Shown in pieces: positions 15,311-28,501 of a stretch of 64,000 bases of DNA. The notes beneath the pieces are model-generated. The model was not told the origin of the DNA. It saw nothing but the letters and a program-made list of their open reading frames with translations, and ran no database searches. The position numbers were made by a program, and so were the translations under genes. The DNA is from a virus. Position 1 is the stretch's first letter, and each line of letters starts with the position of its first letter. The stretch lies in the IMG/VR virus record IMGVR_UViG_3300042196_000409, one strand, 5' to 3'.

Positions 15311-15316
15311 CGACAC

Positions 15317-15389: not shown

Positions 15390-15396
15390 CGATGAC

Positions 15397-15467: not shown

Positions 15468-15476
15468 CGACGGCCT

Positions 15477-15547: not shown

Positions 15548-15555
15548 CGATTCGT

Positions 15556-15629: not shown

Positions 15630-15635
15630 CTGTCT

Positions 15636-15710
15636 CGAGCAGTAGCTTAGCCTGGCTAAAGCGTTGGTCTGGGGGACCAAAGATCGCAGGTTCAAATCCT
15701 GTCTGCTCGA
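15636..15710 (+). tRNA. tRNA-Pro(GGG)
   Basis: Acceptor CGAGCAG/CTGCTCG. Perfect anticodon stem TTGGT/ACCAA. Loop ctGGGgg. Confidence 0.6.
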
Positions 15711-15787
15711 CGAAAGGAGAATGCGGCTGATCTACTGTCAGATCTGTCGCCAAGGAGCGTCTAGTCTACCGAAGGAGAACGAACGTC

Positions 15788-16324: not shown

Positions 16325-16349
16325 TCAAGCGAGCGACGTGCTCGCATCT

Positions 16350-16423
16350 GGGAACGTGGGAGAGATGGAGTCTCCGCCGGCCTGTCACGCCGGAGGTCGC
16401 GGGTTCAAGTCCCGTCGTTCCCG
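16350..16423 (+). tRNA. tRNA-Asp(GTC)
   Basis: Acceptor GGGAACG/CGTTCCC. Perfect anticodon stem CCGGC/GCCGG. Loop ctGTCac. Confidence 0.7.
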
Positions 16424-16528
16424 CCGATAGCGTGGTCGATCACCGCGCGTCGATGACTCATCCTCGCAAGGGGCTCCTTTTTGGGATGCCGCGCACGTCG
16501 AGCGCTCGGCGACGCGGCTGGGTCTTCT

Positions 16529-16599
16529 GGGTCCATCGTTCAAAGGGAGAACGCGGCGTTCGCAATGCCGAAATGCGAGTTCGAGTCTCGCTGGATCCA
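16529..16599 (+). tRNA. tRNA-Ala(CGC)
   Basis: Acceptor GGGTCCA/TGGATCC with G3-U70 Ala identity pair. Loop ttCGCaa. Confidence 0.6.
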
Positions 16600-16618
16600 C
16601 GTTACGTAGTCCTACGAA

Positions 16619-16690
16619 GGGGCTGTCTGTCCAACGGGAAGACGCGCGTCTGGCTGACGCGAGATGACGGTTCGATTCCGTTCAGCTCCA
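16619..16690 (+). tRNA. tRNA-Ala(GGC)
   Basis: Acceptor GGGGCTG/CAGCTCC with G3-U70. Anticodon stem CGCGT/ACGCG. Loop ctGGCtg. Confidence 0.55.
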
Positions 16691-16727
16691 CGATCGCTGC
16701 TCCGCCGTGCGGTGCCTACACGCAACC

Positions 16728-16806
16728 ATGATGCCTCAAGGTGAGGCGTCGGCCTATGGAGCCGAAGCAGTCAGGTTCAATTCCTGATCATCCCGCAAGG
16801 GATCGT
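16728..16806 (+). ncRNA. possible degenerate tRNA-like element
   Basis: T-arm TCAGGTTCAATTCCTGA and hairpin TCGGC-ctATGga-GCCGA are present. No pairing acceptor stem found by eye. Confidence 0.2.
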
Positions 16807-16834
16807 GCACCGTGCACTCGAGCAGCGAACACTT

Positions 16835-17086
16835 TCAGTGGCCATGGCAAGGGCCACGGCAGACCATGCATTCTTCCTCGAAGCTGTCGTCGAGGGTGTC
16901 TGCGCCAGGATGCGGATGGATCACTTCCTCTTCGAGGACGTCTCCAACCAAGGCATCGTTGGTGGTGGTAGCGCAGCGTGGACACAAGAGCATCGATTCA
17001 GCGTGCCGCCACGCCTGGGGGAACTGATCGATGGCGGTGATCTCCTGCGTCTTGCCACAGCGAGCGCACACAACGAATGTCGCCAT
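16835..17086 (-). CDS. small zinc-ribbon protein
   Basis: CARCGK...CPRC and CMVCRGPCHGH Cys clusters. Lies between tRNA genes on the opposite strand. Confidence 0.35.
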   Translation of the reverse strand: MATFVVCARCGKTQEITAIDQFPQAWRHAESMLLCPRCATTTNDALVGDVLEEEVIHPHPGADTLDDSFEEECMVCRGPCHGH

Positions 17087-17134
17087 GCTTCTACGCTACG
17101 TTACCGTCGGTATCACCGACAGTTTTTGGCTCTC

Positions 17135-17207
17135 GGGCAGGCATGTTCCAAGGGGGCGAGCGGGATTTGCAATCCTGCTGCGGCCGGTTCAATCCCGGTC
17201 CTGTCCA
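17135..17207 (+). tRNA. tRNA-Ala(TGC)
   Basis: Acceptor GGGCAGG/CCTGTCC with G3-U70. Loop ttTGCaa. Confidence 0.6.
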
Positions 17208-17415
17208 CGCGTCATGCTTACGCCGGCACCTCGCGATGTCTCCCGGCTCTACTCGGGATCGATTGCGGCGCGCCGACGAGCACAGCCTCGATGTCGGCTC
17301 TATGAGTTACGTCCGGGGCAACTCAAGCGGGCCGTCCGCGGGACTGTCTCCCCCGCTTTGCTAGCCGTTCGCTTGTGCCCGAGGATATCAGACCCAGCTC
17401 CGCGCTGTGTTTCTC

Positions 17416-17486
17416 GCCGCTATCGTCAAACAGTAAGACGCTGCTTTGGTAGGGCAGAAATCCGGGTGCGATTCCCGGTGGCGGCT
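17416..17486 (+). tRNA. tRNA-Thr(GGT)
   Basis: Acceptor GCCGCTA/TGGCGGC. Loop ttGGTag. T-arm CCGGGTGCGATTCCCGG. Confidence 0.6.
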
Positions 17487-17494
17487 CGAATCGA

Positions 17495-17565
17495 TCAGGG
17501 ATCGTCTAACGGTAGGACACGAGATTTTGGATCTCGGCATGAAGGTTCGATTCCTTCTCCCTGAA
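17495..17565 (+). tRNA. tRNA-Gln(TTG)
   Basis: U1-A72 acceptor TCAGGGA/TCCCTGA. Perfect anticodon stem CGAGA/TCTCG. Loop ttTTGga. Confidence 0.7.
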
Positions 17566-17569
17566 CCAT

Positions 17570-17641
17570 GCATGGGTCGCCAAGAGGCTAGGCACTTCTC
17601 TGCAAAAGAAGCACACGCGGGTTCGACTCCCGTCCCATGCT
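17570..17641 (+). tRNA. tRNA-Cys(GCA)
   Basis: Acceptor GCATGGG/CCCATGC. Perfect anticodon stem CTTCT/AGAAG. Loop ctGCAaa. Confidence 0.7.
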
Positions 17642-17645
17642 CCGC

Positions 17646-17720
17646 GCTCCTGACGCCCCATTGGAAGGGGTCTCTGTTTTCTAAACAGATCCGTTGCAGG
17701 TTCGAGCCCTGTCAGGAGCA
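17646..17720 (+). tRNA. tRNA-Arg(TCT)
   Basis: Acceptor GCTCCTG/CAGGAGC. Anticodon stem TCTGT/ACAGA. Loop ttTCTaa. Confidence 0.6.
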
Positions 17721-17729
17721 CGAGATCTT

Positions 17730-17802
17730 GGTCCCGTAGCCTAGTGGACGAGGCACGCGTTTCCTAAACGCGCTCACGCAGGTTCGAGTCCTGCCGGGAT
17801 CA
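17730..17802 (+). tRNA. tRNA-Arg(CCT)
   Basis: Acceptor GGTCCCG/CGGGATC. Perfect anticodon stem CGCGT/ACGCG. Loop ttCCTaa. Confidence 0.65.
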
Positions 17803-17827
17803 CGCACGTCATCATCGTCGACTTCAC

Positions 17828-17898
17828 GCCTCCGTACGTGGACGTGACCCGAGTTTCCGAAGCTTGGTGGGCTGGTTCAAATCCAGCCGGAGGCACCA
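17828..17898 (+). tRNA. atypical tRNA-like gene with encoded CCA (possible 9-nt anticodon loop)
   Basis: Perfect acceptor GCCTCCG/CGGAGGC followed by A-CCA. T-arm GCTGGTTCAAATCCAGC. Core folds only with stem CCGAG/CTTGG around the loop tttCCGaag. Confidence 0.35.
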
Positions 17899-17901
17899 TA
17901 C

Positions 17902-17973
17902 GTCGGTGTCGTTCAATGGTCAGGACCACGGCCTTTCACGCCGTAGATACGAGTTCGATTCTCGTCGCCGATA
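17902..17973 (+). tRNA. tRNA-Glu(TTC)
   Basis: Perfect anticodon stem ACGGC/GCCGT. Loop ctTTCac. T-arm ACGAGTTCGATTCTCGT. Confidence 0.55.
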
Positions 17974-17994
17974 CGATCTTCACGCACGTGCCAG

Positions 17995-18184: not shown

Positions 18185-18325
18185 CGCTTGTATAGCGTTA
18201 AGCGCGCGCTGTCAATCTGACGCCCCGCGCGCGCAGGATTGACTCCGCTTGCGAATGGATATACAAACGCTAGCGTTGAATGACAGGGCGCGAACGCGCC
18301 GTTGTTTGTTTTGCTAGACGAGGTG
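18185..18325. promoter_or_regulatory. divergent promoter region between the RHH gene (-) and the Ro60-like gene (+)
   Basis: Plus strand: TTGACT, 15-nt spacer, TATACA ahead of the 18330 start. Minus strand: TTGACA, 15-nt spacer, TATACA ahead of the 18174 start. GC-rich inverted repeat GCGCGCGC..GCGCGCGC. Confidence 0.35.
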
Positions 18326-18329: not shown

Positions 18330-20249
18330 ATGACGACAGCAGAGAAGTTGGGACCTGCGGAGAAGATTCTCCAGACGCTCCTGAATCACACGGACCACAT
18401 GGTCCACAACCGTCCCGGCATGGTGTCGCCGGATGCTCGTCACACGATCGGTGTGCGCTGGGTGTTCGTCACGCACAAGGAAGAGAACGGCCAGAAGGTC
18501 GTCTACGAGCTGACGAAGGTCGGCAAGAAGACGAACGAGATCCGCAGGGGCGTGATGCGCGCCGACGGCAAGGTCGAGGAGAACGGCAAGATCGTCGGCG
18601 AGTACCGCTCGCCTGGGCTGTTTCCCGAGGTCGCCGCCTGGATGTATCGCCAGGTCGCTGAGGTGTGGAAGATGGACAACGAGTTCGCGGCGCGCTGGGC
18701 GTCGTACGCGTTTGGCCAGGAGCACCGTGACCTCAAGGTCGTGCTCGCGGCCTTCATGCTCGTGCAGACGCGCAAGGGCGATCCCGTGCTCGACGGGGGC
18801 AAAGTCGCGTTCTACGACGACGACTTCCGCGACATCGGCGAAGCCATGATGCTTATCCACCGTCGGGACGGAAAGGATCTGAGCCCGAAGCTCCTGGTCC
18901 GCGTCCACGACCTTCTGAAGGTGCCGGGCGTCGCGGCCATCAACCGCGAGCTGGGCTTTGGTAACTCGGCGCGTCGCCCGTTCCTTGGCCGTTGGTCGAA
19001 GGCGGTCGAGAAGTGGCTCCAGTTTCGCGAGGAGAACCCCAGGATGCTCGACGGCCTCATCAAGGCCGGCTTCAAGAGTACCGTGAAGGATCTCGCGCGT
19101 ACGGTCGGCTACAAGCCTCAGACCCCGAAGTTCTTCGAGGCCCTCGGCTGGGCACAGGATCAGGCCAAGGACGGCCGGCGCTCGATCCTCATCGGCGTCG
19201 ATCTGGCCAAGGCCGAGACCTGGAACGATCTGACCGAGGCGCAGATCTGCGAGAAGATCGTCACCGAGAAGCCGGGCTGGAAGCGCATCGTCGGTCTCTT
19301 GCCGAAGAAGCTCGGGGTCACGCGCGCCATCATGAGCGCAGCCGTCGAGTCGAACGCGCTGTCCAACAAGGACCTCATCATTCTCACGCCCACGCTGGAG
19401 GAGCTGGGGCTCCTGGAGGTCAAGGAGGTCAAGGCGAAGTGGGAGCGCGCCCTCAAGAAGGCCGAGGACGACATGCGCGCGGGCAACATCGCGCGCAACG
19501 TGAAGTCCAAGGACGTGCAGGAGCAGCTCCAGGGAGCGGCCGACACGGCGCTCCAGAAGACGATGGAGGTGGCGACGCGCAACATGCGTATCTACGTCCT
19601 CATCGACATCTCCAGCTCGATGCAAGGTGCCATCGAGAGGGCGAAGACGCTGCTCGAGAAGTTCCTCCAGGGCTTCCCGCTCGATCGCACACACATCGCG
19701 ACGTTCAACACGGTGGGGCGCGTGATCGAGATCAAGCACGCTTCGGCGGCTGGCGTGGCCCAGGCATTCAAGGGTTTCACTGCCAGCGGGGGCACGACGC
19801 ACGGTGCAGGTGTGATGGCTCTTGCCCCGTTCCCGCCGAAGGAGGACGAAGACACGCTCTTCATCATCGTTGGCGACGGCGGCGAGAACTTGTCGTTCCA
19901 CACCTACGTCGAGCAGTCCAAGCTGCGTCCGATGGCCTTCGGCTTCCTGATGCTGCCTGGTCAGAACTACGGCGCACCGGAGAAGACGGCGGCACAGCTC
20001 GGCATTCCGTGCTTCAAGATCGAGCAGAACACGTTCGACGACGTCTACGCGATCCCGCGGACCATCCGCGCGCTCGTGGCGGCGACGCCGGTCGGTGCCG
20101 TGGCGCGTGCGGCGGCGACGCCGCGTGTGACGCTCGTCGAGACGATCCTCAAGACGGATCTGCTCAAGAAGCCTGCATGGGCGGCGACGGTCCGTGCGAT
20201 CGCCGCAGCGGACGCAGCACCCGCGGCGACGGCCGCGGCGACGGCCTAG
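18330..20249 (+). CDS. Ro60-like protein (alpha-helical TROVE-like N-region + C-terminal vWA/MIDAS domain)
   Basis: vWA MIDAS DISSSMQG..TASGGTTHG..IIVGDGGEN at residues ~415-560. ~410-aa helical N-region. Architecture and size match Ro60/Rsr; the TROVE assignment is inferred. Confidence 0.55.
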   Translation: MTTAEKLGPAEKILQTLLNHTDHMVHNRPGMVSPDARHTIGVRWVFVTHKEENGQKVVYELTKVGKKTNEIRRGVMRADGKVEENGKIVGEYRSPGLFPEVAAWMYRQVAEVWKMDNEFAARWASYAFGQEHRDLKVVLAAFMLVQTRKGDPVLDGGKVAFYDDDFRDIGEAMMLIHRRDGKDLSPKLLVRVHDLLKVPGVAAINRELGFGNSARRPFLGRWSKAVEKWLQFREENPRMLDGLIKAGFKSTVKDLARTVGYKPQTPKFFEALGWAQDQAKDGRRSILIGVDLAKAETWNDLTEAQICEKIVTEKPGWKRIVGLLPKKLGVTRAIMSAAVESNALSNKDLIILTPTLEELGLLEVKEVKAKWERALKKAEDDMRAGNIARNVKSKDVQEQLQGAADTALQKTMEVATRNMRIYVLIDISSSMQGAIERAKTLLEKFLQGFPLDRTHIATFNTVGRVIEIKHASAAGVAQAFKGFTASGGTTHGAGVMALAPFPPKEDEDTLFIIVGDGGENLSFHTYVEQSKLRPMAFGFLMLPGQNYGAPEKTAAQLGIPCFKIEQNTFDDVYAIPRTIRALVAATPVGAVARAAATPRVTLVETILKTDLLKKPAWAATVRAIAAADAAPAATAAATA

Positions 20250-20256
20250 CTTCGTT

Positions 20257-21195
20257 ATGGGGTGGCGCGATTTACTCCAGACGGGCGACGAGAAGGTGAC
20301 CCTTCCGTGGCTTGGCGGCAGGACGCTCTACTCCACTGCGCAGCGCTGGTCGATCGAAGGGCGCCTCCCGAAGGACTACGGGTGGCACACGTTCAAGATC
20401 GCCAACCGGGAAGCTCACGCACAAGGGCCAGCTGATCCGCAACCGGATCTGCTTCAGCATTCCGTGCGCGGTTACCTGGTTGGCGATCGCATCGTCGCGG
20501 ATGACGTCCGTGTCGATCCAGATCCCAAGGGCATCGTGAATTTCTCCGAGACGGTGTTCCTGCTCGACGAGGGCATCGATCGGTTCGCGCGTGTGCGCGC
20601 GGGGCGCATCAACAAGGAGGGCCCGCTGGTCTACCAGGGCCTCGAGATGCCGCTCGGCCAGGAGGACGCCGTGCTCGAAGCTTTCCTCGAACAGAAGACG
20701 TCGGTCGCGGACATCAAGAACGTACCGCCGGGGCTCGATGCGGCATTCCGCATGGAGAGCTGGCAGCGCGCCGAGGCCGAGCGTCGCCGCATCGAGCTGG
20801 AGCGCATCCGTTGTGAAGAGGAGGAGAAGCGTCAGAAGGAGGAGCGTCGCCAGGCGCTCGTGAAGAAGCTCGGGGACGGTGAAGGCCGTCGCGAGATGGC
20901 GCTCCACGACTTCGACGCTGCGGCACGCGCAGCACTCGCGGTGGGCGGCGCGGTCTTCCTCGACGCGAAGTCTGTGCGCAAGAACGAATGGGCGGTCCGC
21001 TACCGTATCGGTAACGACCGCCAGCGGTTCGAGTGCGTGTGCAACGAGCGCCTTCGCATCGTCGACGCGGGCATCTGTCTCGTCAATCACGCCACCGACG
21101 AGAGGGGCGACACTTTCTTCACGCTCGAATCACTCCCAGCCGTCGTGCAGCAGGCGCAGCGCGAGCGACGGCTGGTCATCTTTCGTCACGTGTAA
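20257..21195 (+). CDS. hypothetical protein
   Basis: Internal ATG (MGWRDLL) after an Arg-rich leader. Charged helical middle, ends ..QRERRLVIFRHV. Confidence 0.45.
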   Translation: MGWRDLLQTGDEKVTLPWLGGRTLYSTAQRWSIEGRLPKDYGWHTFKIANREAHAQGPADPQPDLLQHSVRGYLVGDRIVADDVRVDPDPKGIVNFSETVFLLDEGIDRFARVRAGRINKEGPLVYQGLEMPLGQEDAVLEAFLEQKTSVADIKNVPPGLDAAFRMESWQRAEAERRRIELERIRCEEEEKRQKEERRQALVKKLGDGEGRREMALHDFDAAARAALAVGGAVFLDAKSVRKNEWAVRYRIGNDRQRFECVCNERLRIVDAGICLVNHATDERGDTFFTLESLPAVVQQAQRERRLVIFRHV

Positions 21196-21212
21196 GAACC
21201 ACCGGAGGAGTC

Positions 21213-21443
21213 ATGAGCAAACCAAAGTACAAGGTCGGCGACAGCGTTACCATCGACATCGGCTGGGAGCGTGTCGTGCCTCGCAAGGTGCTCATCTCTG
21301 AGGTGCGCGCTGATCACGGCAGACAGGGGGCGCACCGCTATTTTGGAAGTGGTGACGGTGGCGAGCACGGCTTCTACGAAGATCAGATTCTGGTCGAAGG
21401 GCGTGATCGAGTTTCACGCGCGGACTGGGAGGCGCCTCTGTGA
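21213..21443 (+). CDS. small hypothetical protein (76 aa)
   Basis: MSKPKYKVGDSVTIDIGWERVV.. Flanked by a ~45-bp direct repeat that duplicates the 3' end of the upstream gene. Confidence 0.4.
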   Translation: MSKPKYKVGDSVTIDIGWERVVPRKVLISEVRADHGRQGAHRYFGSGDGGEHGFYEDQILVEGRDRVSRADWEAPL

Positions 21444-21506
21444 AGAGGCCGAGCATCGTGCAGCGCGAGCGAAGGCTGGTCATCTTCCGTCACGTGTGAG
21501 CTCACC

Positions 21507-22208
21507 ATGAAGCCCTACTATTTTCGCTCAGGTTTTGGCGACATCGTGCTCGACGATGTTCTCAACAGCACGCCGTGGATCAAGGTCACGGACGCGCGGT
21601 TGGAATGCTTCATGTCGGCACGCACGGAGACGTACACCTACGGCGAAGGCCGCGGCGTTCGGACGTACACGCCCGTTCCGTACTCGCCTCTCGTGGCGGA
21701 CATCCAGCGCCAGCTCAACCGTGACGGCCTGGAGCGCGAGACGCTCGATGACGTCTACATGTACAACGTATGTTTCCTGAATCGCTACGACAACGCGGCG
21801 ATGCAGCTTGGGTGGCACTCGGACGACTCACCGGGGATGGACCACGAGCATCCCATCGCAGTCGTGTCGTTCGGGCAGCCGCGCGAGATCTGGTGGCGTG
21901 AGAAGGGCCAGACCGGAGTCATCCCAGCTGATCAGCGTCAGCTTCTCGAGCACGGCTCCATCTTTGTGATGCCGGCGGGCATGCAGCGCACCCACCAGCA
22001 CCGCATCCCGAAGGGTGACAAGCCGATGGGCTTGCGCGTCTCGCTCACCTACCGGCACTACGACCCCGAAGAGGCATGGCGCGCGACGCACCGTACGCTG
22101 CTTGAGACCGCGAAGTTCGAGACCCAGTCGATGGCTGTCGATCTTCACGTTGAGGTTCACCGCGGCCTTGACGTCGTTCTTGCAAACGCAGCCCAGCCAA
22201 AGGAATAG
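21507..22208 (+). CDS. alkB: AlkB-family 2OG-Fe(II) dioxygenase
   Basis: Fe-binding HxD (LGWHSDD) and distal His (HQHRIP). AlkB-type RVSLTYR 2OG-binding Arg. ~230 aa. Confidence 0.75.
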   Translation: MKPYYFRSGFGDIVLDDVLNSTPWIKVTDARLECFMSARTETYTYGEGRGVRTYTPVPYSPLVADIQRQLNRDGLERETLDDVYMYNVCFLNRYDNAAMQLGWHSDDSPGMDHEHPIAVVSFGQPREIWWREKGQTGVIPADQRQLLEHGSIFVMPAGMQRTHQHRIPKGDKPMGLRVSLTYRHYDPEEAWRATHRTLLETAKFETQSMAVDLHVEVHRGLDVVLANAAQPKE

Positions 22209-22212
22209 GCCC

Positions 22213-22797
22213 GTGAAGTTCTCAGACATCAAGCTCACGGACATCGGCACCACGATCCAGATGGTCGGTGCCGTCTACGCCGACGGAAGTGGCAAGGGCT
22301 ACTACTTCGCCTTTCCGTCGACGAGCGGCGAGGGTGCGAATCCCGAGCACGTCGAGATGACGAACGAGGACTGGAAGGTCATGCTTCGGCAGGCCGACGT
22401 GGTCGAGGTCGAGGCGACGGTGCAGGCCGAGAACGGAGAGCTTCAGAAGGCGATCGTTCGCAAGAGCCAGCGCCAGATCGATTCGCAGGTCTCGTGGAAC
22501 GTCTTTCGGCGGGACAACTTCATGTGCCGTTACTGCGGCACCGAGAAGCTGTCGCTGACGGTCGATCACCTCGTGCGTTGGGAGGACGGCGGTCCTTCGA
22601 TCGAGGAGAACCTTGTCGCGTGCTGCCGAAAGTGCAACAAGGTCCGCGGTGACACGGCGTACGCGGCGTGGCTGCGGCACCCGTACTATCTGGAGAAATC
22701 GCGAAGTGTCTCCGGCGCGTACCAGCAGCTCAACCAGCGTGTTGCCGACACTCTCGCGAACATCCCCCGTGTTCACATCAAGAAGGGCCGCTCATGA
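22213..22797 (+). CDS. fusion protein: unknown N-domain + C-terminal HNH nuclease domain (first gene of the Ubl/JAB/E1 cassette)
   Basis: GTG start. C-terminal CRYCG..LTVDHLVRWEDGG..NLVACCRKCNKVRGD matches HNH. Stop overlaps the next start (ATGA). Confidence 0.55.
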   Translation: MKFSDIKLTDIGTTIQMVGAVYADGSGKGYYFAFPSTSGEGANPEHVEMTNEDWKVMLRQADVVEVEATVQAENGELQKAIVRKSQRQIDSQVSWNVFRRDNFMCRYCGTEKLSLTVDHLVRWEDGGPSIEENLVACCRKCNKVRGDTAYAAWLRHPYYLEKSRSVSGAYQQLNQRVADTLANIPRVHIKKGRS

Positions 22798-23183
22798 TCG
22801 AAGCTGGTGTAGTCATCGACAAGAACGGAAGCCCGCTGTTCTGGCACCTGCCCGAGGGTCGTACCGGAGGGAGCCTTCCCGACAGCCGGACCCTGTGGCA
22901 GGTTCTCTGGGACGCGTTCCAGGAAGACACGCTGCGCGGTTTCGCGCACAGTCACCCGGGCTCCGGCGTTCCCGGCCCCTCGTACTCGGACGTCACGACG
23001 TTCGCGGCCGTCGAGGCCGCGCTCGGCAAGCGCCTCGACTGGTGGATCACCAGCTCGGACCACGTGGTCGAGGTCTGTTGGGCCGGACCGGACAAACTTT
23101 CATACCGCTCCACGATCGTTACGGAGGCACCGTCGTGGGTAGCGGAACTGCGACGCCTCTCTCAGCAAGGACAAGGACAATGA
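22794..23183 (+). CDS. JAB/MPN (JAMM) metallopeptidase
   Basis: JAMM motif HSHPGSGVPGPSYSD (HxHx7Sx2D) with an upstream Glu. ~130 aa. Translationally coupled on both sides. Confidence 0.7.
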   Translation: MIEAGVVIDKNGSPLFWHLPEGRTGGSLPDSRTLWQVLWDAFQEDTLRGFAHSHPGSGVPGPSYSDVTTFAAVEAALGKRLDWWITSSDHVVEVCWAGPDKLSYRSTIVTEAPSWVAELRRLSQQGQGQ

Positions 23184-23521
23184 ACGAGATCAAGGACAAC
23201 GAGGCGCGCGTCAACATCACGTACGGCGGCAAGAACGGCGACCTGCCGGATCCCGTCTTCTTCCAGTCGACGGACGGTGACGTCAAGAATTGGGTCACCG
23301 AGGCAGTCCGTGCCGGCACGGTGCCAGGGCTCGATGCGGCACCGACCGCGGACTTCGGTGACTTTGTCATCGATCGTTTCGCGGCGGACGCGACGCGTCC
23401 CTACAACTTGATCCAGGTCCGGCCGAAGACGCCGTTCGGGTTCGCCTCGTGCGATCACTGCAAGGTGTGCTTCTACCGGGCTCTGGGGCTCGGGTGCTGC
23501 GCCTGCCCGACGAAGAAGTAA
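23180..23521 (+). CDS. small protein, candidate ubiquitin-like/sulfur-carrier precursor (C-terminal ..ALGLG-CCACPTKK)
   Basis: 113 aa. Lies between JAB and E1 genes with ATGA/TAATG overlaps. The C-terminus has Gly-Leu-Gly then a short Cys-rich extension, as in JAB-processed ThiS/Ubl precursors. Fold is unverified. Confidence 0.4.
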   Translation: MNEIKDNEARVNITYGGKNGDLPDPVFFQSTDGDVKNWVTEAVRAGTVPGLDAAPTADFGDFVIDRFAADATRPYNLIQVRPKTPFGFASCDHCKVCFYRALGLGCCACPTKK

Positions 23522-23528
23522 TGCAGCC

Positions 23529-24107
23529 ATGGCCGCCATGATCGTCATCGTCGGCGTCGGAGCTCTGGGCAGTCACCTGGTCCAGTTCATTCGTAACGAG
23601 AAGGTGGACATCCGCATCATCGACTTCGATCGCGTCGAGCAGAAGAATGTGATGTCGCAGTTCCACGGCAAGCCTGGCGTGGGCAAGAACAAGGTCGCTG
23701 CCCTCCAGCAGACGATGGACTTCTTGTTCAAGCGCCAGCTCGCGGTGGTGAGCAACAAGCTCGTCGCCGACAACATCGACGTGCTCATGAAGGGCGCGAC
23801 GCTGGTCGTCGACTGCCTCGACAACGGCGCCTCGCGGAAGCTCGTGCAGGACTACGTGCGCAAGCACAACCTGCCGTGTCTTCACGGCGCGCTCGCTCCG
23901 GGCGGCGAGTTTGGTCGCGCGATCTGGGACGAGAAGTTCGTGATCGACAGCGAGGTCGGTGCGGGTGCGGTGACGTGCGAGGACGGGGAGTTCCTTCCTT
24001 TCATCGCGCTCACGGCCGGGTTCATGGCGCGCTCGATCCAGCTCTTCTTGAAGGAGGAGAAGAAGATCGGATTCTCGATCTCGCCCGTCGGTGTGATCGC
24101 CATCTGA
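23529..24107 (+). CDS. ThiF/MoeB/E1-like adenylyltransferase (short form)
   Basis: Rossmann motif IVGVGALGS. E1-type IIDFDRVEQKNVMSQ (Arg finger and Asp). Ends LPCLHGAL. 192 aa. Confidence 0.65.
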   Translation: MAAMIVIVGVGALGSHLVQFIRNEKVDIRIIDFDRVEQKNVMSQFHGKPGVGKNKVAALQQTMDFLFKRQLAVVSNKLVADNIDVLMKGATLVVDCLDNGASRKLVQDYVRKHNLPCLHGALAPGGEFGRAIWDEKFVIDSEVGAGAVTCEDGEFLPFIALTAGFMARSIQLFLKEEKKIGFSISPVGVIAI

Positions 24108-24423: not shown

Positions 24424-24454
24424 CTCTGAGAAGCAGCCATTCCCTAGTGTGCTT

Positions 24455-24526
24455 ACACGCATAGCTCAACGGTAGAGCATCGGCCTACGAAGCCGAAGGT
24501 TGGGACTTCAAAACTCCCTGCATTCA
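24455..24526 (+). pseudogene. degenerate tRNA-Arg(ACG)-like element
   Basis: Canonical D-arm GCTCAACGGTAGAGC and anticodon arm TCGGC-ctACGaa-GCCGA. T-loop is 9 nt and the acceptor strands do not pair. Confidence 0.3.
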
Positions 24527-24567
24527 ACAAAGCACTCTTCACTCGGCTGCCCTCTAATTTCCTGACG

Positions 24568-24598
24568 CAAGAGCCGCGAAAGCGGCTCTTGTCGTTTC
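24568..24598 (+). terminator. rho-independent terminator
   Basis: Hairpin CAAGAGCCGC-GAAA-GCGGCTCTTG followed by TCGTTTC. Confidence 0.55.
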
Positions 24599-25328
24599 AC
24601 GAGTGCGCAGTGTCCCGCGCTATGCTCGATCGCATGGACGGCCACGCCCTTCTCGGACACCTGGCGCTTTGTGCTGGCATCATCGGCGACGGCGGCCCGC
24701 GCGCGTATCGCCGTCGCGGCTCTCCGCTGCTGGAGAAGTATCTGCCTGGCCGTTTCCTTGCTGGACTACGTCCCGAGATTCGCGCTGACGTCGTGCAGGC
24801 CGCGAATACTACGCAGACGTCGCCCGCGCCGTGGTTCTTGCGCCTGGTCGTCGACGAGCAAGAGCACCGCGTCGCGTTGCCTTCGCCGCCGATCGATCGG
24901 CGATGGAGCTGCCGTGGTAGGTGGTCCGCAACACCAGGGATACGGTGAGCTGATCGATGTCACGCATGCCGCTTGTCTCGGTAGTGTTCTACATCGCGAC
25001 GCGCCTCCATCTGGACGGCGATGTCGTGGACGCGAGCATGGTGGAGCTGTTCGGCCGAGCTGGAGTGTATCTCGCGTCACGGCAGCTCGTGGATGACGGC
25101 GTGCACGGAGAGGACACGCGTCCCGAGCTACAGGGCTGAGCGAATGCGGACAAGCGCTCAATGGGCGTTTGGCGCGCTCTTGGACTACTGGGATCGCTGG
25201 AGCTCCGCTCGTCGATCGGTGTGGCTCAAACTTCCGCGGCGTCCTAAATCCGCAGCTCTCACGTTTGCTCTCGCCGCCGTGGCCTCTGTCGCTCCATGCA
25301 CGCCGTTGGTGCGGTACAACCGCTTTCG

Positions 25329-25673
25329 ATGAAGCTCGAGACACATGAAGGACCGATCGCGGGATCGGTGACCGCGGATGTTATCGCTCGAACCGTCGCG
25401 CAGCTCACTGATGTCGGCAAGGCGTACATTATCTTGGATGACGACCGCGATGCCGAGACGTACGTCCAGGCTGCCGGTACCGTCGGTGAGGAGTTCATCG
25501 TCGAGCGTCGTGATGGCTGCGCGGGCGAGCACTACCGGGGTGATCGGCGCGTGACGGCCGACGAGCTGATCACGATGCTCGTCGGCTGCTTGAGCGGTGC
25601 GACGGACTGGAGCCACGGCATCTCGTGGCACCATGTGCGCGTCGACTTCGGCGCTGCGAACGCGAACGCGTAG
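25329..25673 (+). CDS. hypothetical acidic protein
   Basis: Internal ATG (MKLETHEG..). Asp/Glu-rich and protein-like. Confidence 0.4.
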   Translation: MKLETHEGPIAGSVTADVIARTVAQLTDVGKAYIILDDDRDAETYVQAAGTVGEEFIVERRDGCAGEHYRGDRRVTADELITMLVGCLSGATDWSHGISWHHVRVDFGAANANA

Positions 25674-25731
25674 TTGTCGATCCCGGCATGTTCCGCTTTG
25701 GAAGCTAGCTCTTAGACAGGATTGACAGCGG

Positions 25732-26052
25732 TTGCCGCCGTCACTACGTTTTGCAGCGACTTGGGAGAACGCTAAATTGCTCGTCGTCGACGTCGCCGTT
25801 GGCATCGCAATTCTTGGCCTCCTAACGCTGGGAGCTGGCTTCTTGGCCGCCCTGCGCAAGAAGCAGAAGGACAAGGATCCACGGACTCAGGGCGAAGCGG
25901 CTCGCGCGAAGGGCGAGCTGAACGCGCAGCGCATGGAAGTCAACGATGCGATGCGCTGCACGATGTGCGGCAAGGACACGAATCCAGACGTGGACCTGTA
26001 CACCAACAACGTGTGGTGGCATCGCGCCTGTTACCGAAGCGTCATCAGCTGA
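25732..26052 (+). CDS. small membrane protein with C-terminal Cys/His cluster
   Basis: TM segment LLVVDVAVGIAILGLLTLGAGFLAAL, then RKKQKDKD, then CTMCGK..WWHRACY. Confidence 0.4.
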   Translation: MPPSLRFAATWENAKLLVVDVAVGIAILGLLTLGAGFLAALRKKQKDKDPRTQGEAARAKGELNAQRMEVNDAMRCTMCGKDTNPDVDLYTNNVWWHRACYRSVIS

Positions 26053-26056
26053 AAGG

Positions 26057-27004
26057 ATGAGAATGCGAAACAATCAGCGGGGCAGCGTTACGTTGTATGC
26101 AATCGGGGCCGTCGGCGTGATCGGCGGTTTGATCATAGGCATGATCACGTGCGCGAAGCTCGAACAGATTGATCCTGGTCACGTGGGTGTATCGGTCAAG
26201 AAATGCGGCGGCGGCGGCGTCAGCGCTGAGCCCATCCCGACCGGCTACTACTGGCGAGAGCTGTTCTGCGAGAAGGTTGTCGAGTACCCGATCTCCATGC
26301 AGAGCCTCATTCTCACCAAGAGCCCGCACGAAGGTGGCAAGTGCAATCCGAGCGACGGCAGCTGTGATGAGAGCATCATGGTTACGTCGTCGGAGGGCCT
26401 GAACATCAACCTTGATGTGGCGCTGAACTTCACTTTGGACGCCAAGCAGGTGCCAAAGATCTACGAGCGCTGGCGGTCCGATATTGAGGACATCTCGCAC
26501 AAGTACATCCGGCAGACGATCCGGGAGTCCCTTCAGCTGACGTTCGCCAAGTCGACTGCGGAGGAGCTGTACTCGACGAAGAAGGAGATCGCTCGCATCG
26601 AAGCCGAGAAGATCATCCGCGAGAAGCTCGAACCGATGGGCTTCATGATCTCGCAGTTCACCATCAATCGCATCGAGCCGCCAAAGCAGGTCATTGACGC
26701 GATCAACGCCAAGGTTGCCATGGTTCAGGACGCGCAGAAGTCGGAGCAAGAGGTGCGCAAGAAGACGGCCGAGGCTGCGCAAAAGGTCGCCACTGCCAAG
26801 GGCGATGCCGATGCGGTGGAAGCGGCTGCGAGGGGCGAGGCTGCATCCATTACGATGCGTGCCGAGGCGCAAGCCAAGGCGAACAAGCTGCTGAGTGAAT
26901 CGATCACCCCGAACCTCATCCAGTACGAGCAGGCCAGGAAGTGGGACGGTAAGCTGCCCAGCACGACCGGCGGTGTCGTTCCGTTCCTCAACGTCAACAA
27001 GTAG
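26057..27004 (+). CDS. SPFH/Band-7 (prohibitin/HflC-like) domain protein
   Basis: N-terminal TM segment. Band-7 core ..IYERW..DIEDISHKYIRQTIRESLQ. C-terminal Ala/Lys-rich coiled coil. Confidence 0.65.
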   Translation: MRMRNNQRGSVTLYAIGAVGVIGGLIIGMITCAKLEQIDPGHVGVSVKKCGGGGVSAEPIPTGYYWRELFCEKVVEYPISMQSLILTKSPHEGGKCNPSDGSCDESIMVTSSEGLNINLDVALNFTLDAKQVPKIYERWRSDIEDISHKYIRQTIRESLQLTFAKSTAEELYSTKKEIARIEAEKIIREKLEPMGFMISQFTINRIEPPKQVIDAINAKVAMVQDAQKSEQEVRKKTAEAAQKVATAKGDADAVEAAARGEAASITMRAEAQAKANKLLSESITPNLIQYEQARKWDGKLPSTTGGVVPFLNVNK

Positions 27005-27011
27005 GCGGCTG

Positions 27012-27251
27012 CTACGCGAGAGCTGGATCGCACACGTGTGGTGGCGCGCGATCCACGACGACTGCTTCCGGCGCTCCGAGCTTGCAGGCTTCGCAGATCG
27101 CCTTGTCGGCCTGGAGCTGAGCGATGCATGCCGGACACGTGACCTTGCTACGTAAGCAGGTCAACTCTTCCGATAGAAGCTCGTCGATCGTGAGGCCGCA
27201 GCCGATGATCGCGCTCGGGTAGTACCAGTGCTTGTCGCGCGTTTCCGTCAT
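27012..27251 (-). CDS. small Cys-rich protein
   Basis: CGLT..CLRSKVTCPACI..CEAC pattern in 79 aa. Confidence 0.35.
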   Translation of the reverse strand: MTETRDKHWYYPSAIIGCGLTIDELLSEELTCLRSKVTCPACIAQLQADKAICEACKLGAPEAVVVDRAPPHVCDPALA

Positions 27252-27442
27252 CGCGCAAGAACGTAAGCAACAGCTGCGGCGCGCGCAACAAGGGCGCTTG
27301 ACGTGCGCAGCGCCTTGCGCTACACGTGAATCTCCTCGATGCGCTCGTTTCGCTTACCAGCTCGACTTCGCTCGCTACGCTTGCCGGCTTGAGGCAGGCG
27401 TAGCTCGCAGCATGTCTTGAGCCGGCGTAGCGCAACGCAGCC

Positions 27443-27523
27443 GCGTCAATGGTGGAACAAGCAGACACGGTGCTCCTAAAAAGCACTGCTCATGGCATGA
27501 GGGTGCAAATCCCTCTTGACGCA
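27443..27523 (+). tRNA. tRNA-Leu(TAA), type II
   Basis: Acceptor GCGTCAA/TTGACGC. Perfect anticodon stem GTGCT/AGCAC. Loop ccTAAaa. 12-nt variable-arm hairpin. T-loop TGCAAAT. Confidence 0.6.
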
Positions 27524-27530
27524 CGTTTCC

Positions 27531-27607
27531 GTCGCGATAGCCCAACTGGAAGCGGCAGTGGTCTGAGGGGCCATTCAGTGCGGGTTCGAATCCCGCTCGC
27601 GACACCA
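27531..27607 (+). tRNA. tRNA-like gene with encoded CCA (anticodon not resolved by eye)
   Basis: Perfect acceptor GTCGCGA/TCGCGAC plus A-CCA. T-arm GCGGGTTCGAATCCCGC. Confidence 0.4.
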
Positions 27608-27626
27608 TCAAGGAAGGAGGAGCCCC

Positions 27627-28187
27627 ATGACGCAGCAAGTTTGGTTCACGAGCGACACTCATTTCGGCCACACGAACATCGTGAAGTACAGCGGGCGTCC
27701 GTGCGCTGACGTGCACGAGATGAACGAAGCGCTCGTCCTCAACTGGAACGCGGTCGTGAAGCCCGGCGACCTCGTGTATCACGTCGGCGACTTCGCGCTC
27801 TGCGACGTCGAGGCCGCGACGAAGATCGTGAAGCGCCTTGCAGGCCAGAAGTACCTCGTGTTTGGAAACCACGACAAGGCGCTGCGCAAGGACAAGATCT
27901 TCCTCGGGCACTGGATCTGGGCGAAGGACATGGCGGACATCACGGTCGGATCGCAGCGCATCGTGCTCCTGCACTACGCGATGCGCGTGTGGAACCAGAG
28001 CCACCGTGGCGCTTGGCAGTTGCACGGACACTCGCACGGTTCGCTCAAGGAGGAACCGCACTTGCTCCAGGCGGACGTCGGCGTGGACTGCTGGAACCAA
28101 CGTCCGGTTTCGTTCGAGGAGCTCGTCACGAAGATGGCGACGAAGAATTATCAGCCCGTCGATCATCACGGGCGTCAAGACGAGTGA
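27627..28187 (+). CDS. calcineurin-like metallophosphoesterase
   Basis: Motifs DTHFGH, GDF, GNHD, GHSHG in canonical order. 186 aa. Confidence 0.75.
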   Translation: MTQQVWFTSDTHFGHTNIVKYSGRPCADVHEMNEALVLNWNAVVKPGDLVYHVGDFALCDVEAATKIVKRLAGQKYLVFGNHDKALRKDKIFLGHWIWAKDMADITVGSQRIVLLHYAMRVWNQSHRGAWQLHGHSHGSLKEEPHLLQADVGVDCWNQRPVSFEELVTKMATKNYQPVDHHGRQDE

Positions 28188-28214
28188 CTGATCGAACTCC
28201 GCCTAGTACGTTTC

Positions 28215-28290
28215 GCCGACGTAGCCCAACTTGGTAGCAGGCAATGCGCTTAGATCGCATCCAGTGCTGGTTCAAATCCAGTCGTCGGCA
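28215..28290 (+). tRNA. class-I-shaped tRNA with Leu anticodon TAG
   Basis: Acceptor GCCGACG/CGTCGGC. Perfect anticodon stem ATGCG/CGCAT. Loop ctTAGat. 5-nt variable loop. T-arm GCTGGTTCAAATCCAGT. Confidence 0.5.
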
Positions 28291-28424
28291 CGATGAAAAA
28301 AGAAAGCCTACTCGCGTCGACGTCGCACATGCACTACTGGCGGCCCGAGGGGGCGGGTGTTCGTGCAGAGGCGCGACGATAGCTTTCGGCTTGCAGTGAC
28401 CTTCGCAGACAGCTCTGACACCAC

Positions 28425-28501
28425 GTCGTCGTGGTCCAACGGGTAGAGGCGTCCCGCTCAAGACGGGAAAGTTGCGGGTTCAAATCCCGCCGACGACACC
28501 A
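28425..28501 (+). tRNA. class-I-shaped tRNA with Leu anticodon CAA, encoded CCA
   Basis: Acceptor GTCGTCG/CGACGAC. Perfect anticodon stem TCCCG/CGGGA. Loop ctCAAga. 5-nt variable loop. T-arm GCGGGTTCAAATCCCGC. Confidence 0.5.

What the first reader, a model, noticed from the sequence alone, without database searches (positions are those of the whole stretch)
22213..24107. Translationally coupled HNH-fusion / JAB / small Ubl-like / E1-like cassette: candidate phage-borne ubiquitin-like conjugation or sulfur-carrier system
Four same-strand genes overlap by ATGA/TAATG. They encode an unknown N-domain fused to an HNH nuclease, a JAMM/MPN peptidase (HSHPGSGVPGPSYSD), a 113-aa protein ending ..YRALGLG-CCACPTKK, and a 192-aa ThiF/E1-like enzyme (GVGALGS, DFDRVEQKN). 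The small protein's C-terminus looks like a masked diglycine awaiting JAB processing, as in QbsE/CysO-type carriers. No E2-like UBC, PP-loop ATPase or cysteine synthase partner was seen, and the E1 is unusually short. The context (AlkB upstream, tRNA-like RNAs downstream, phage-like genome) does not match known Bil/CBASS/Cys/Qbs operons, so this may be an undescribed phage-encoded Ubl or thiocarboxylate pathway.
Basis: partly seen in the sequence, partly recalled or inferred. Interest (0 to 1): 0.78.

Follow-up and report, generated by a model that had tools for sequence, protein, structure and literature searches.

The report
Jumbo-phage ubiquitin-like activation module
A giant bacteriophage carries a small ubiquitin-like protein, the enzyme that activates it and a protease that trims it. 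Hundreds of related uncultured phages keep these genes next to two other conserved genes, so this looks like a virus-encoded ubiquitin-type tagging system that nobody has described.

Summary
The core observation is real. Window 22794-24107 encodes a JAMM/JAB peptidase, a small beta-grasp (ubiquitin-like) protein and a minimal ThiF/MoeB-type E1. All three have intact catalytic motifs and conserved synteny in more than 100 related loci.

- **Processing site.** Tails after G87 are 0-80 aa and unrelated to each other.
- **JAB and tails.** All nine distinct JAB-less loci have a Ubl ORF that stops exactly at that glycine, and they fall in at least three separate lineages. This marks JAB as the C-terminal maturase.
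- **HNH fusion.** It is not a component. Its N-domain has no cysteine, it is absent from most loci, and it sits at different positions or far from the module. It looks like a mobile endonuclease.
- **Conserved unit.** The unit has five genes: a MIDAS-vWA protein (18330-20249), a 313-aa OB/coiled-coil/Cys-His protein (20254-21195), then (JAB)-Ubl-E1. It is usually embedded in phage tRNA arrays.

No E2 fold, rhodanese, PP-loop enzyme or other sulfur acceptor was found nearby. The best reading is an E2-independent Ubl activation and conjugation system of jumbo phages, probably of Myxococcota. Its target and chemistry are untested.

The parts
18330..20249 (+). vWA protein (639 aa): unknown helical N-domain (aa 1-410) plus a vWA domain with a complete MIDAS motif (D426-x-S428-x-S430, T489, D516). 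First gene of the conserved module.
   Evidence: Pfam VWA_CoxE/VWA_2. MIDAS residues are invariant in 23 homologues. The PDB profile hits only BatA/BatB-type vWA domains. No TROVE hit in any of 23 members. It lies upstream of p313 in nearly all loci. A terminator-like hairpin at 18287-18300 precedes it.
20254..21195 (+). p313 (313 aa): N-terminal OB-like beta domain(s), a long coiled-coil helix (aa 159-207) and a small C-terminal beta domain with conserved C261, C263, C275, H279 and H312. Second gene of the module; candidate adaptor or target.
21507..22208 (+). AlkB-like 2OG-Fe(II) dioxygenase. An accessory insertion, not a core part.
   Evidence: Pfam 2OG-FeII_Oxy_2 1.8e-18. PHROG 'alkylated DNA repair' 7.9e-53. 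By tblastn it is found at this position only in the window's own contig and its closest relatives L012/L013. In L120 it sits at a different place, near the E1.
22213..22797 (+). HNH endonuclease (194 aa) with a 100-aa cysteine-free N-domain. A mobile, homing-type gene inserted in the operon, not a core part.
   Evidence: HNH Pfam 2.5e-10. Present full-length in roughly a quarter of the loci, and at different positions: between p313 and JAB, between vWA and p313, between Ubl and E1, or 4-6 kb downstream. It also occurs with no module within 7 kb (L121). 622+ homologues. In P0385 it is fused in frame behind the Ubl glycine.
22794..23183 (+). Minimal JAMM/JAB metallopeptidase (129 aa). Predicted maturase that removes the tail after Ubl G87, and possibly a deconjugase.
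   Evidence: E3, H52, H54, S63 and D66 are invariant in 44 sequences. Pfam Prok-JAB is hit by 24 of 24 members. The best PDB profile hits are Rpn11, over the HxH..S..D motif (E 0.077). JAB absence correlates with a tail-less Ubl.
23180..23440 (+). Ubl domain (aa 1-87): beta-grasp ending in the invariant RPKTPFG. G87 (codon 23438-23440) is the predicted mature C-terminus.
23441..23521 (+). 26-aa Cys-rich tail (FASCDHCKVCFYRALGLGCCACPTKK) plus stop codon. A propeptide specific to the window's subclade, predicted to be cleaved off.
   Evidence: The tail pattern CxHCxxC...CCxC is kept in close relatives only (P0002-P0024). Elsewhere tails are 0-80 aa and unrelated. Model pLDDT is below 65 here.
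23529..24107 (+). Minimal E1-like adenylyltransferase (192 aa, ThiF/MoeB type). It has no N-terminal helices, no Zn CxxC motifs, no rhodanese domain and no E2 domain.
   Evidence: Pfam ThiF 2.6e-19. NCBIfam ThiF/MoeB/UbaA matches all fall below family cut-offs. Alignment to MoeB 1jw9. Conserved in 41 sequences: G9, G11, G14, D32, N40, Q44, K55, D95, D98, N99, R103, H119 and C150. The MoeB R73 position is S43.

Best explanation
The finding is part of a five-gene jumbo-phage module: vWA(MIDAS) protein, p313 (OB/coiled-coil/Cys-His protein), JAB, Ubl and a minimal E1.

**Proposed mechanism**
1. The Ubl is made as a precursor with a variable C-terminal tail, 26 aa and Cys-rich in this phage.
2. 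The JAMM peptidase cuts after G87 of the invariant RPKTPFG motif. This step is inferred from comparative genomics.
3. The E1 homologue binds ATP and adenylates G87. This is inferred from retained ThiF/MoeB nucleotide-site residues.
4. The Ubl probably passes to the conserved crossover-loop cysteine C150 as a thioester. This is inferred from position and conservation.
5. With no E2 encoded in the module, the Ubl is then transferred directly to amino groups of target proteins, as in archaeal SAMP/UbaA and Thermus TtuB/TtuC conjugation.
6. The two invariably linked upstream proteins act as target, receptor or specificity factors. This step is speculative. A MIDAS site binding an acidic residue of a UBL domain has a precedent in Rea1/MDN1-Ytm1/Rsa4.

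The HNH gene and AlkB are passengers.
For: **Ubl**
- Invariant terminal RPKTPFG followed by unrelated tails of 0-80 aa.

**JAB**
- All JAMM catalytic residues are invariant, and it belongs to the Prok-JAB family.
- Among distinct loci, 45 of 58 JAB+ loci have a tailed Ubl. All 9 JAB-less loci have a Ubl ORF ending exactly at the Gly (Fisher p 1.2e-5).
- The JAB-less loci fall in at least 3 separate places on a p313 tree, each beside JAB+ sisters.

**E1**
- GxGxxG, D32, N40, Q44, K55, D98 and R103 correspond to MoeB G38-G43, D62, N70, Q74, K86, D130 and R135.
- C150 (39 of 39) aligns with MoeB C187 in the crossover loop. That is where E1 catalytic cysteines lie (PMC11601596, section read).

**Synteny**
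- The order vWA, p313, (JAB), Ubl, E1 on one strand holds in almost all of about 100 loci, whether anchored on Ubl or on p313.

**No E2**
- The p313 model matches OB folds, not UBC.
- The HNH N-domain has no Cys.

**No sulfur enzymes**
- None appears in the Pfam sweep of the 64-kb window or among the flanking genes of four diverse loci.
Against: - No biochemical data exist for any member.
- The E1 lacks two arginines that contact ATP in MoeB. The R73 position is Ser or Ala, and the N-terminal segment carrying R14 is absent (the role of these residues is from my memory of the MoeB-MoaD structure work).
- A crossover-loop Cys is also present in the sulfur-carrier enzymes ThiF and MoeB, so it does not separate conjugation from thiocarboxylate formation.
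- The module is embedded in tRNA arrays in 34 of 42 loci. That fits a tRNA-thiolation sulfur relay equally well.
- Only 64 kb of the 329-kb genome was examined for partner enzymes.
- The JAB-versus-tail statistic is not corrected for phylogeny.
Confidence: 0.5

Rival explanations
1. Sulfur-carrier system. The E1 adenylates the Ubl, and host or phage sulfurtransferases convert G87 to a thiocarboxylate. This donates sulfur to a biosynthetic enzyme, most plausibly a thiolase for the phage's many tRNAs (TtuB/TtuC/TtuA or Urm1/Uba4/Ncs6 logic). JAB unmasks the glycine, as in CysO/Mec+ and QbsE/QbsD.
For: - The E1's closest profile matches are ThiF, MoeB and UbaA and MoeB/Uba4 structures.
- JAB unmasking of a sulfur carrier is an established pattern (Iyer et al. 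2006, PMC1779556).
- The module sits within 2.5 kb of tRNA genes in 34 of 42 loci.
- The window encodes tRNA-Lys(UUU), Glu(UUC) and Gln(UUG), plus RtcB, a release factor and tmRNA.
Against: - No rhodanese, cysteine desulfurase, PP-loop ATPase, ThiG, MoaE or CysM was found in the window sweep or in the Pfam-annotated flanks of four diverse loci.
- The C-terminus is Phe-Gly, not the Gly-Gly typical of known sulfur carriers (established knowledge).
- The constant partners are a MIDAS-vWA protein and an OB/coiled-coil protein, which are interaction modules rather than metabolic enzymes.
- tRNA proximity may only reflect conserved genome layout within one phage clade.
Confidence: 0.2
2. Non-covalent or otherwise non-canonical role. 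The Ubl could be a beta-grasp adaptor that assembles with the vWA and p313 proteins. Alternatively the E1-like enzyme could adenylate the Ubl C-terminus for a different end chemistry, such as amidation, peptidyl-nucleotide formation as with MccB, or linkage to a lipid or nucleic acid as with Atg8-PE. JAB would act only as the maturase.
For: - JAB has been lost repeatedly wherever the Ubl has no tail, so deconjugation is not essential.
- The E1 is minimal and lacks two MoeB-type arginines.
- The terminal ..TPFG followed by one residue resembles the Atg8 ..TFG-R precursor end (resemblance from memory, not tested).
- Strict linkage with a MIDAS-vWA protein.
Against: - A strictly conserved C-terminal Gly, a conserved E1 and a conserved crossover Cys are the hallmarks of C-terminal activation, not of a passive adaptor.
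- No enzyme for an alternative end chemistry was identified.
Confidence: 0.2
3. The four genes, including the HNH fusion, form one functional nuclease-linked Ubl cassette, with the HNH N-domain acting as an E2-like or Ubl-binding element.
For: - The HNH gene overlaps the JAB start by ATGA in the window.
- It occupies the same slot between p313 and JAB in several divergent loci: L007, L016, L025, L028 and L120.
- It is conserved full-length at 46-52% identity.
- One genome has an in-frame Ubl-HNH fusion (P0385).
Against: - There is no cysteine in aa 1-103, so a thioester E2 is impossible.
- It is absent from the flanks of most loci and sits at four or more different positions relative to the module.
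- It is found with no module gene within 7 kb (L121).
- LAGLIDADG endonucleases invade the same operon at other sites, which is typical of homing elements.
Confidence: 0.05

Closest known systems
Archaeal SAMP / UbaA / HvJAMM1 (sampylation) and Thermus TtuB / TtuC / JAMM
   Same: A small beta-grasp Ubl with a C-terminal Gly, a single MoeB/ThiF-type E1 and a JAMM peptidase. No E2 or E3. The E1's NCBIfam matches include SAMP-activating UbaA (1.8e-13, below cut-off).
   Different: - Those Ubls end in Gly-Gly, belong to the ThiS/MoaD family, and double as sulfur carriers with known acceptor enzymes.
- Here the Ubl is a new sequence family ending in Phe-Gly.
- The E1 is about 60 aa shorter, with no N-terminal helices and no Zn motif.
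- The system is virus-encoded and is tied to a vWA protein and an OB/coiled-coil protein.
CysO / MoeZ / Mec+ (Mycobacterium) and QbsE / QbsC / QbsD (Pseudomonas) sulfur-carrier operons (Iyer et al. 2006 classes 4a-e)
   Same: A JAB peptidase removes residues that mask the carrier's C-terminal glycine before E1 adenylation. The gene triad is Ubl + E1 + JAB (PMC1779556).
   Different: - Those E1s usually carry a rhodanese domain, or the operon carries sulfur-assimilation or cysteine synthase genes. None is present here.
- The carriers end in GG.
- They are cellular metabolic operons, not phage genes.
Bacterial antiphage ubiquitination-like systems: Bil (BilABCD), Bub (6E) and CBASS Cap2/Cap3
   Same: Ubl, E1 and JAB logic with C-terminal activation. 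The E1 hits PADLOC 'E1-E2' (Cap2) models at 1e-10 over the adenylation domain only. Bub shows that a JAB can be the Ubl maturase and that E1 chemistry can be unorthodox (PMC11601596).
   Different: - All of those encode an E2 domain. Bil E1 has tandem adenylation domains plus a Cys domain.
- No E2 is found here.
- Those are host defence systems, whereas this one is encoded by the phage.
- There is no sequence match for the Ubl or JAB in PADLOC.
Phage lambda/T1 tail-assembly TAPI (Ubl) and TAPK (JAB + NlpC/P60)
   Same: A phage-encoded beta-grasp with a conserved Gly, next to a JAB peptidase predicted to process it (PMC1779556). The window JAB has a weak PHROG hit to the K-like 'tail protein' family (7e-4).
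   Different: The lambda system has no E1 and lies in the tail gene cluster. This module has an E1 and lies among tRNA and RNA-repair type auxiliary genes, not structural genes.

Membership tests
JAMM/MPN+ (JAB) metallopeptidases | Catalytic motif E ... HxH x(7-8) S xx D (zinc ligands plus the general base) | tested here: met
   E3, H52, H54, S63 and D66 are invariant in 44 homologues. The spacing is HxHx8SxxD. Pfam Prok-JAB is hit by 24 of 24 members, best 6.5e-9, although the window protein itself scores only E 0.15. The profile aligns this motif to Rpn11.
E1-like adenylyltransferases (ThiF/MoeB/UBA superfamily) | Rossmann-type ATP site: GxGxxG, an acidic residue after beta2, a conserved Lys, and the Mg-binding Asp of the DxxDN motif | tested here: met
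   Pfam ThiF 2.6e-19. G9/G11/G14, D32, K55, D98/N99 and R103 are conserved in 40-41 of 41 sequences and align to MoeB G38-43, D62, K86, D130 and R135.
E1-like adenylyltransferases (ThiF/MoeB/UBA superfamily) | Arginines contacting the ATP phosphates (MoeB R73 in the NLxRQ motif, and N-terminal R14 supplied in trans) | tested here: not met
   The R73 position is S43 (35 Ser, 5 Ala, 1 Thr). The protein starts 8 residues before the GxGxxG, so it has no R14 segment. Conserved R35 and K39 in DFDRVEQKN might substitute; this is untested.
E1-like adenylyltransferases (ThiF/MoeB/UBA superfamily) | Cysteine in or near the crossover loop (thioester or acyl-persulfide site) | tested here: met
   C150 is present in 39 of 39 ungapped sequences and aligns with MoeB C187. 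The requirement is as stated in PMC11601596. Catalytic use is not testable here.
Ubiquitin-like beta-grasp modifiers/carriers | Beta-grasp fold (b-b-a-b-b) | tested here: met
Ubiquitin-like beta-grasp modifiers/carriers | Conserved C-terminal glycine exposed, or exposable by a protease, on a flexible tail | tested here: met
   G87 is invariant or nearly so. Many ORFs end at G or at G+1. The tail-less state tracks JAB loss.
ThiS/MoaD-type sulfur carriers | C-terminal Gly-Gly and linkage to a sulfur donor or acceptor enzyme (rhodanese/IscS; ThiG, MoaE, CysM, TtuA/Ncs6) | tested here: not met
   The terminus is Phe-Gly. There is no ThiS/MoaD Pfam hit. No such enzymes appear in the 64-kb window sweep or in four annotated related loci. 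The rest of the 329-kb genome was not examined.
Bil / Bub / CBASS-Cap2 ubiquitination-like defence systems | An E2 (UBC-fold) domain with a catalytic Cys (Ser in Bub), free-standing or fused to the E1 | tested here: not met
   The E1 is a bare adenylation domain. The p313 model matches OB folds only. The HNH N-domain has no Cys. No Prok-E2 Pfam hit appears for any module gene.
Ro60/Rsr (TROVE + vWA) RNA-quality-control proteins | TROVE domain N-terminal to the vWA/MIDAS domain, with an adjacent Y RNA | tested here: not met
   No TROVE hit in 23 vWA-protein homologues at E up to 1, nor in the PDB profile search. No Y RNA in the Rfam scans.
Homing-type HNH endonucleases (for the 22213-22797 gene) | HNH catalytic core plus variable genomic position or sporadic presence among related genomes | tested here: met
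   HNH Pfam and PHROG hits. Sporadic presence at four or more different positions. Actual homing activity is not testable here.

The most novel reading that the evidence does not exclude
These jumbo phages, probably of Myxococcota, encode a complete and self-sufficient ubiquitin-like protein conjugation pathway that works without an E2. It comprises a precursor Ubl, a JAMM maturase and a minimal E1. A dedicated MIDAS-vWA receptor and an OB/coiled-coil Cys-His factor would direct the Ubl onto host or phage proteins during infection. This would be the first virus-encoded Ubl-tagging system of prokaryotic viruses. Its component set (vWA, JAMM, OB-coiled coil) echoes proteasome-lid parts (Rpn10, Rpn11, Rpt N-domains).
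Probability: 0.35. Interest if true: 0.85.

Novelty: new variant of a known kind. Interest (0 to 1): 0.66.

Why it matters
Ubl/E1/JAB systems in bacteria have recently been shown to be antiphage weapons (Bil, Bub, CBASS). Here the same logic is carried by the virus, in a stripped-down E2-less form and with a Ubl family that no domain database recognises. It is conserved across hundreds of uncultured 150-540-kb phage genomes and locked to two uncharacterised partner proteins.

If it conjugates proteins, it would show that phages also use ubiquitin-type tagging, for host takeover, counter-defence or virion maturation. It would also provide a minimal E1-only system for studying how conjugation worked before E2s existed. 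If instead it is a sulfur relay, it would be a phage-encoded route for modifying the phage's own large tRNA set. Either outcome can be tested with four small recombinant proteins.

Tried and rejected
- **'GLG' as the cleavage site.** Rejected; it is not conserved.
- **HNH N-domain as an E2.** Rejected: no Cys and mobile.
- **p313 as an E2/UBC.** Rejected at fold level; it shows OB folds only.
- **vWA protein as Ro60/TROVE with a Y RNA.** No support.
- **Direct sequence matches of the Ubl or JAB to PDB, Pfam, PHROGs, PADLOC or NCBIfam.** None for the Ubl. Only weak or family-level matches for JAB.
- **Foldseek of the Ubl model against PDB.** Non-significant.
- **DNA similarity to GenBank phages.** None at megablast level. 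By protein, only the uncultured Virus Rctr197k carries the module. A 595-kb uncultured phage (LR756511) and Moraxella phages have distant short E1s but no recognisable Ubl.
- **Literature searches for a described phage Ubl/E1/JAB/vWA module.** Nothing found.
- **Promoter scan.** Uninformative.
- **Sulfur-enzyme search.** Limited to the 64-kb window and the annotated flanks of four loci.
Full report
**1. What is in the sequence**

The window is 62% G+C and carries 43 tRNA genes and a tmRNA. It comes from a 328,796-bp JGI metagenome contig (3300037483, Ga0395805_0000018), so it is a jumbo-phage-type genome. On the + strand, ORFs run as follows:
- 18330-20249: 639 aa, vWA protein
- 20254-21195: 313 aa, here called 'p313'
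- 21507-22208: AlkB-like
- 22213(GTG)-22797: 194 aa, HNH protein
- 22794-23183: 129 aa, JAB
- 23180-23521: 113 aa, Ubl
- 23529-24107: 192 aa, ThiF-like E1

The two ATGA overlaps (22794-22797 and 23180-23183) are real. The ATG at 23521 is out of frame, and the E1 ORF begins at 23529 after a 7-nt spacer. A terminator-like hairpin (18287-18300) lies just before the vWA gene, and none lies on the + strand between there and the E1 stop. This fits one transcription unit from 18330 to 24107, but the scan is weak evidence.

**2. The three enzymatic and carrier parts**

*JAB.* The window protein has no significant Pfam hit by itself. In 44 homologues, however, E3, H52, H54, S63 and D66 are invariant, giving the JAMM motif E...HxHx8SxxD. 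All 24 family members scanned hit Pfam Prok-JAB, best E 6.5e-9. A family profile aligns the motif to Rpn11 (E 0.077).

*E1.* Pfam ThiF scores 2.6e-19 over aa 4-123. The best solved relatives are MoeB, a Bub-type ThiF protein and Uba4. Forty-one homologues conserve G9/G11/G14, D32, N40, Q44, K55, D95, D98/N99, R103, H119 and C150. In the HMMER alignment these map to MoeB G38-43, D62, N70, Q74, K86, D130 and R135, and C150 maps to C187 in the crossover-loop region. That region is where E1 catalytic cysteines sit (PMC11601596).

Two deviations stand out. The MoeB R73 position is Ser or Ala. The protein also begins only 8 residues before the GxGxxG, so the N-terminal arginine-bearing helices and the C-terminal Zn CxxC motifs of MoeB are missing. 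It is a bare adenylation domain with no rhodanese, E2 or Cys-domain insert. Its size is comparable to the short 'thiF_fam2' family (TIGR02354 model length 200).

**3. Where the Ubl really ends**

Alignments show an invariant RPKTPFG ending at G87. After it come 0-80 residues that are unrelated between lineages.

Among 67 distinct loci:
- 45 of 58 with a JAB gene have a tailed Ubl.
- All nine loci without JAB, where p313 and Ubl are only 54-284 nt apart, have a Ubl ORF that stops right after the glycine (Fisher p = 1.2e-5, not phylogenetically corrected).
- On a neighbour-joining tree of p313, the JAB-less loci fall in at least three separate places beside JAB+ sisters: L062/L064 with L058, L059/L061 with L016, and L070 with L069.

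Repeated JAB loss only where no tail needs removing is the strongest evidence here. It indicates that JAB is the C-terminal maturase and that G87 is the functional end. It also suggests that deconjugation is not essential to the system.

**4. The real module**

tblastn of the seven window proteins was run against three sets of loci: 44 Ubl-anchored IMG/VR loci, 48 p313-anchored loci, 15 MAG contigs and several assemblies. The order vWA, p313, (JAB), Ubl, E1 on one strand holds almost universally. The exceptions are contigs that end early, a few loci where a gene lies beyond the flank, and one locus (L069) with JAB after the Ubl. Co-occurrence is reciprocal: every p313-anchored locus has a Ubl and a JAB.

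The vWA protein has a complete, invariant MIDAS motif (D426xS428xS430, T489, D516). Its 410-aa N-domain matches nothing. TROVE/Ro60 was specifically looked for and not found.

**5. The passengers**

The HNH protein is a conserved 190-204-aa family with 622+ homologues. It is present in only a minority of module loci, and at different places:
- between p313 and JAB (window, L007, L016, L025, L028, L120)
- between vWA and p313 (L033)
- between Ubl and E1 (L045)
- 4-6 kb downstream (L037, L038, L056)
- with no module gene within 7 kb (L121)

Its N-domain (aa 1-103) has no cysteine, which excludes a thioester-forming E2. LAGLIDADG endonuclease genes also interrupt the operon between Ubl and E1 in other phages. 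In one genome the HNH protein is fused in frame directly after ...RPKTPFG (P0385), so there it has become the 'tail'. I read it as a homing-type endonuclease. At this position AlkB is found only in the closest relatives, and in L120 it sits elsewhere.

**6. Context**

A Pfam sweep of 73 further window ORFs found the following:
- RtcB, a class-I release factor and two AAA+/RecA-like ATPases
- TnpB, SprT and YgjP
- an HD domain, a cyclase, SPFH and a metallophosphatase

It found no rhodanese, cysteine desulfurase, PP-loop ATPase, ThiG, MoaE or cysteine synthase. The Pfam-annotated flanks of four diverse loci give the same negative result.

tRNA genes lie within 2.5 kb of the module's ends in 34 of 42 distinct loci.

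Host clue: 12 of 15 MAG contigs carrying the Ubl are binned as Myxococcota or as 'Deltaproteobacteria bacterium' (Kofleriaceae, Polyangia, Sandaracinaceae, Myxococcales and others). In GenBank phages, only the uncultured Virus Rctr197k has the module, in the same order but stretched by insertions.

**7. Mechanism and rivals**

The best-supported reading (confidence about 0.5) has four steps:
1. A precursor Ubl is trimmed by JAB at G87.
2. The minimal E1 adenylates G87.
3. The Ubl is probably passed to C150.
4. It is transferred to targets without an E2, as in SAMP/UbaA or TtuB/TtuC, with the vWA and p313 proteins as receptor, adaptor or target.

Shown here: the motifs, the predicted fold, the synteny and the JAB-tail covariation. 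Inferred: every chemical step.

The rivals are:
- A sulfur-carrier relay, possibly for tRNA thiolation (about 0.2). It is favoured by the ThiF/MoeB affinity and the tRNA-array setting. It is disfavoured by the Phe-Gly end and the lack of any sulfur enzyme.
- A non-canonical end chemistry or a non-covalent adaptor role (about 0.2).

**8. Novelty**

Ubl+E1+JAB triads have been predicted in prokaryotes since Iyer et al. 2006 (PMC1779556), and several have since been characterised (PMC11601596). This one differs from all of them in five ways:
- It is virus-encoded.
- It has no E2.
- Its Ubl is an unrecognised sequence family ending in Phe-Gly.
- Its E1 is a minimal adenylation domain.
- It is strictly linked to a MIDAS-vWA protein and an OB/coiled-coil protein.

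Four literature searches found no description of it. That is not proof of absence, because the library is limited to open-access papers. I class it as a new variant of a known kind.

Noticed in passing
window 23441-23518; relatives P0002-P0024: The 26-aa tail after Ubl G87 (FASCDHCKVCFYRALGLGCCACPTKK) keeps a CxHCxxC...CCxC pattern across the window's subclade. Other lineages have different short Cys-rich, zinc-knuckle-like tails (CPNCGQVH, CICSRCGNAH, CCHTCGRPY). The released peptide or the masked state may have its own function, such as metal binding or regulation.
   Followed up: partly
L059, L061, L062, L063, L064, L066, L067, L068, L070 (MAG contigs): Nine distinct loci lack the JAB gene entirely, with p313 and Ubl only 54-284 nt apart. 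Their Ubl ORFs end exactly at the conserved glycine. They are scattered on a p313 tree, so JAB appears to have been lost several times.
   Followed up: yes
L058-L072 (genome-contig scan): 12 of 15 MAG contigs carrying the module are binned as Myxococcota or as 'Deltaproteobacteria bacterium' (Kofleriaceae, Polyangia, Polyangiaceae, Sandaracinaceae, Myxococcales). Contig sizes reach 544 kb, and tRNA arrays flank the module. These look like jumbo-phage genomes binned with a Myxococcota host.
   Followed up: partly
window 13084-17974 and 24454-28501; 42 related loci: The five-gene module is sandwiched between tRNA gene arrays. tRNA genes lie within 2.5 kb of its ends in 34 of 42 distinct loci. 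Whether this reflects function or only conserved genome layout is unknown.
   Followed up: partly
P0385 (282 aa, metagenomic): This is an in-frame fusion of the Ubl directly to the HNH-fusion protein after ...RPKTPFG. The endonuclease would be released by the same cleavage that matures the Ubl.
   Followed up: no
L007 6290-7234; L012 8344-9432; L013 5916-7073: LAGLIDADG homing endonuclease genes are inserted between the Ubl and E1 genes in several related phages. The operon seems to be a hot spot for selfish endonucleases.
   Followed up: no
window 42908-44404 (-), 47548-47910 (-), and other ORFs: The phage encodes an RtcB RNA ligase homologue (Pfam 1.3e-41), a tmRNA (tag ANDNNGAVALAAA), a class-I release factor (RF-1/PCRF domains), a TnpB/OrfB_IS605 protein, and an AAA+ ATPase with an N-terminal winged helix (50795-52774, -). 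Together these form a large translation and RNA-repair gene set.
   Followed up: partly
window 41391-41464 (-), 16726-16794 (+), 41166-41239 (-), 15477-15548 (+): ARAGORN reports unusual tRNAs: one with a 4-base 'tata' anticodon call, tRNA-His(ATG), tRNA-Ile(AAT) and tRNA-Ile(TAT). They may be suppressor or decoding-expansion tRNAs, or prediction artefacts.
   Followed up: no
window 15788-16324 (+): A second, unrelated HNH endonuclease gene (Pfam HNH_5 1e-16) sits inside the upstream tRNA array. It shares only the HNH core (41% over 49 aa) with the 22213 gene.
   Followed up: partly
L002 (LR756511, 595-kb uncultured phage) 3657-5582; Moraxella phages Mcat17 and Mcat22: Distant short E1-like genes (29-34% identity) occur in other phages. 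In LR756511 the E1 lies 0.8 kb from a JAB gene, but no recognisable Ubl of this family is present. Minimal E1/JAB pairs may be more widespread in phages than this clade.
   Followed up: no
window 21213-21443 (+): A 76-aa gene was called between p313 and AlkB in the source contig (L009 8034-8264). It has no family hit, and its conservation was not examined.
   Followed up: no
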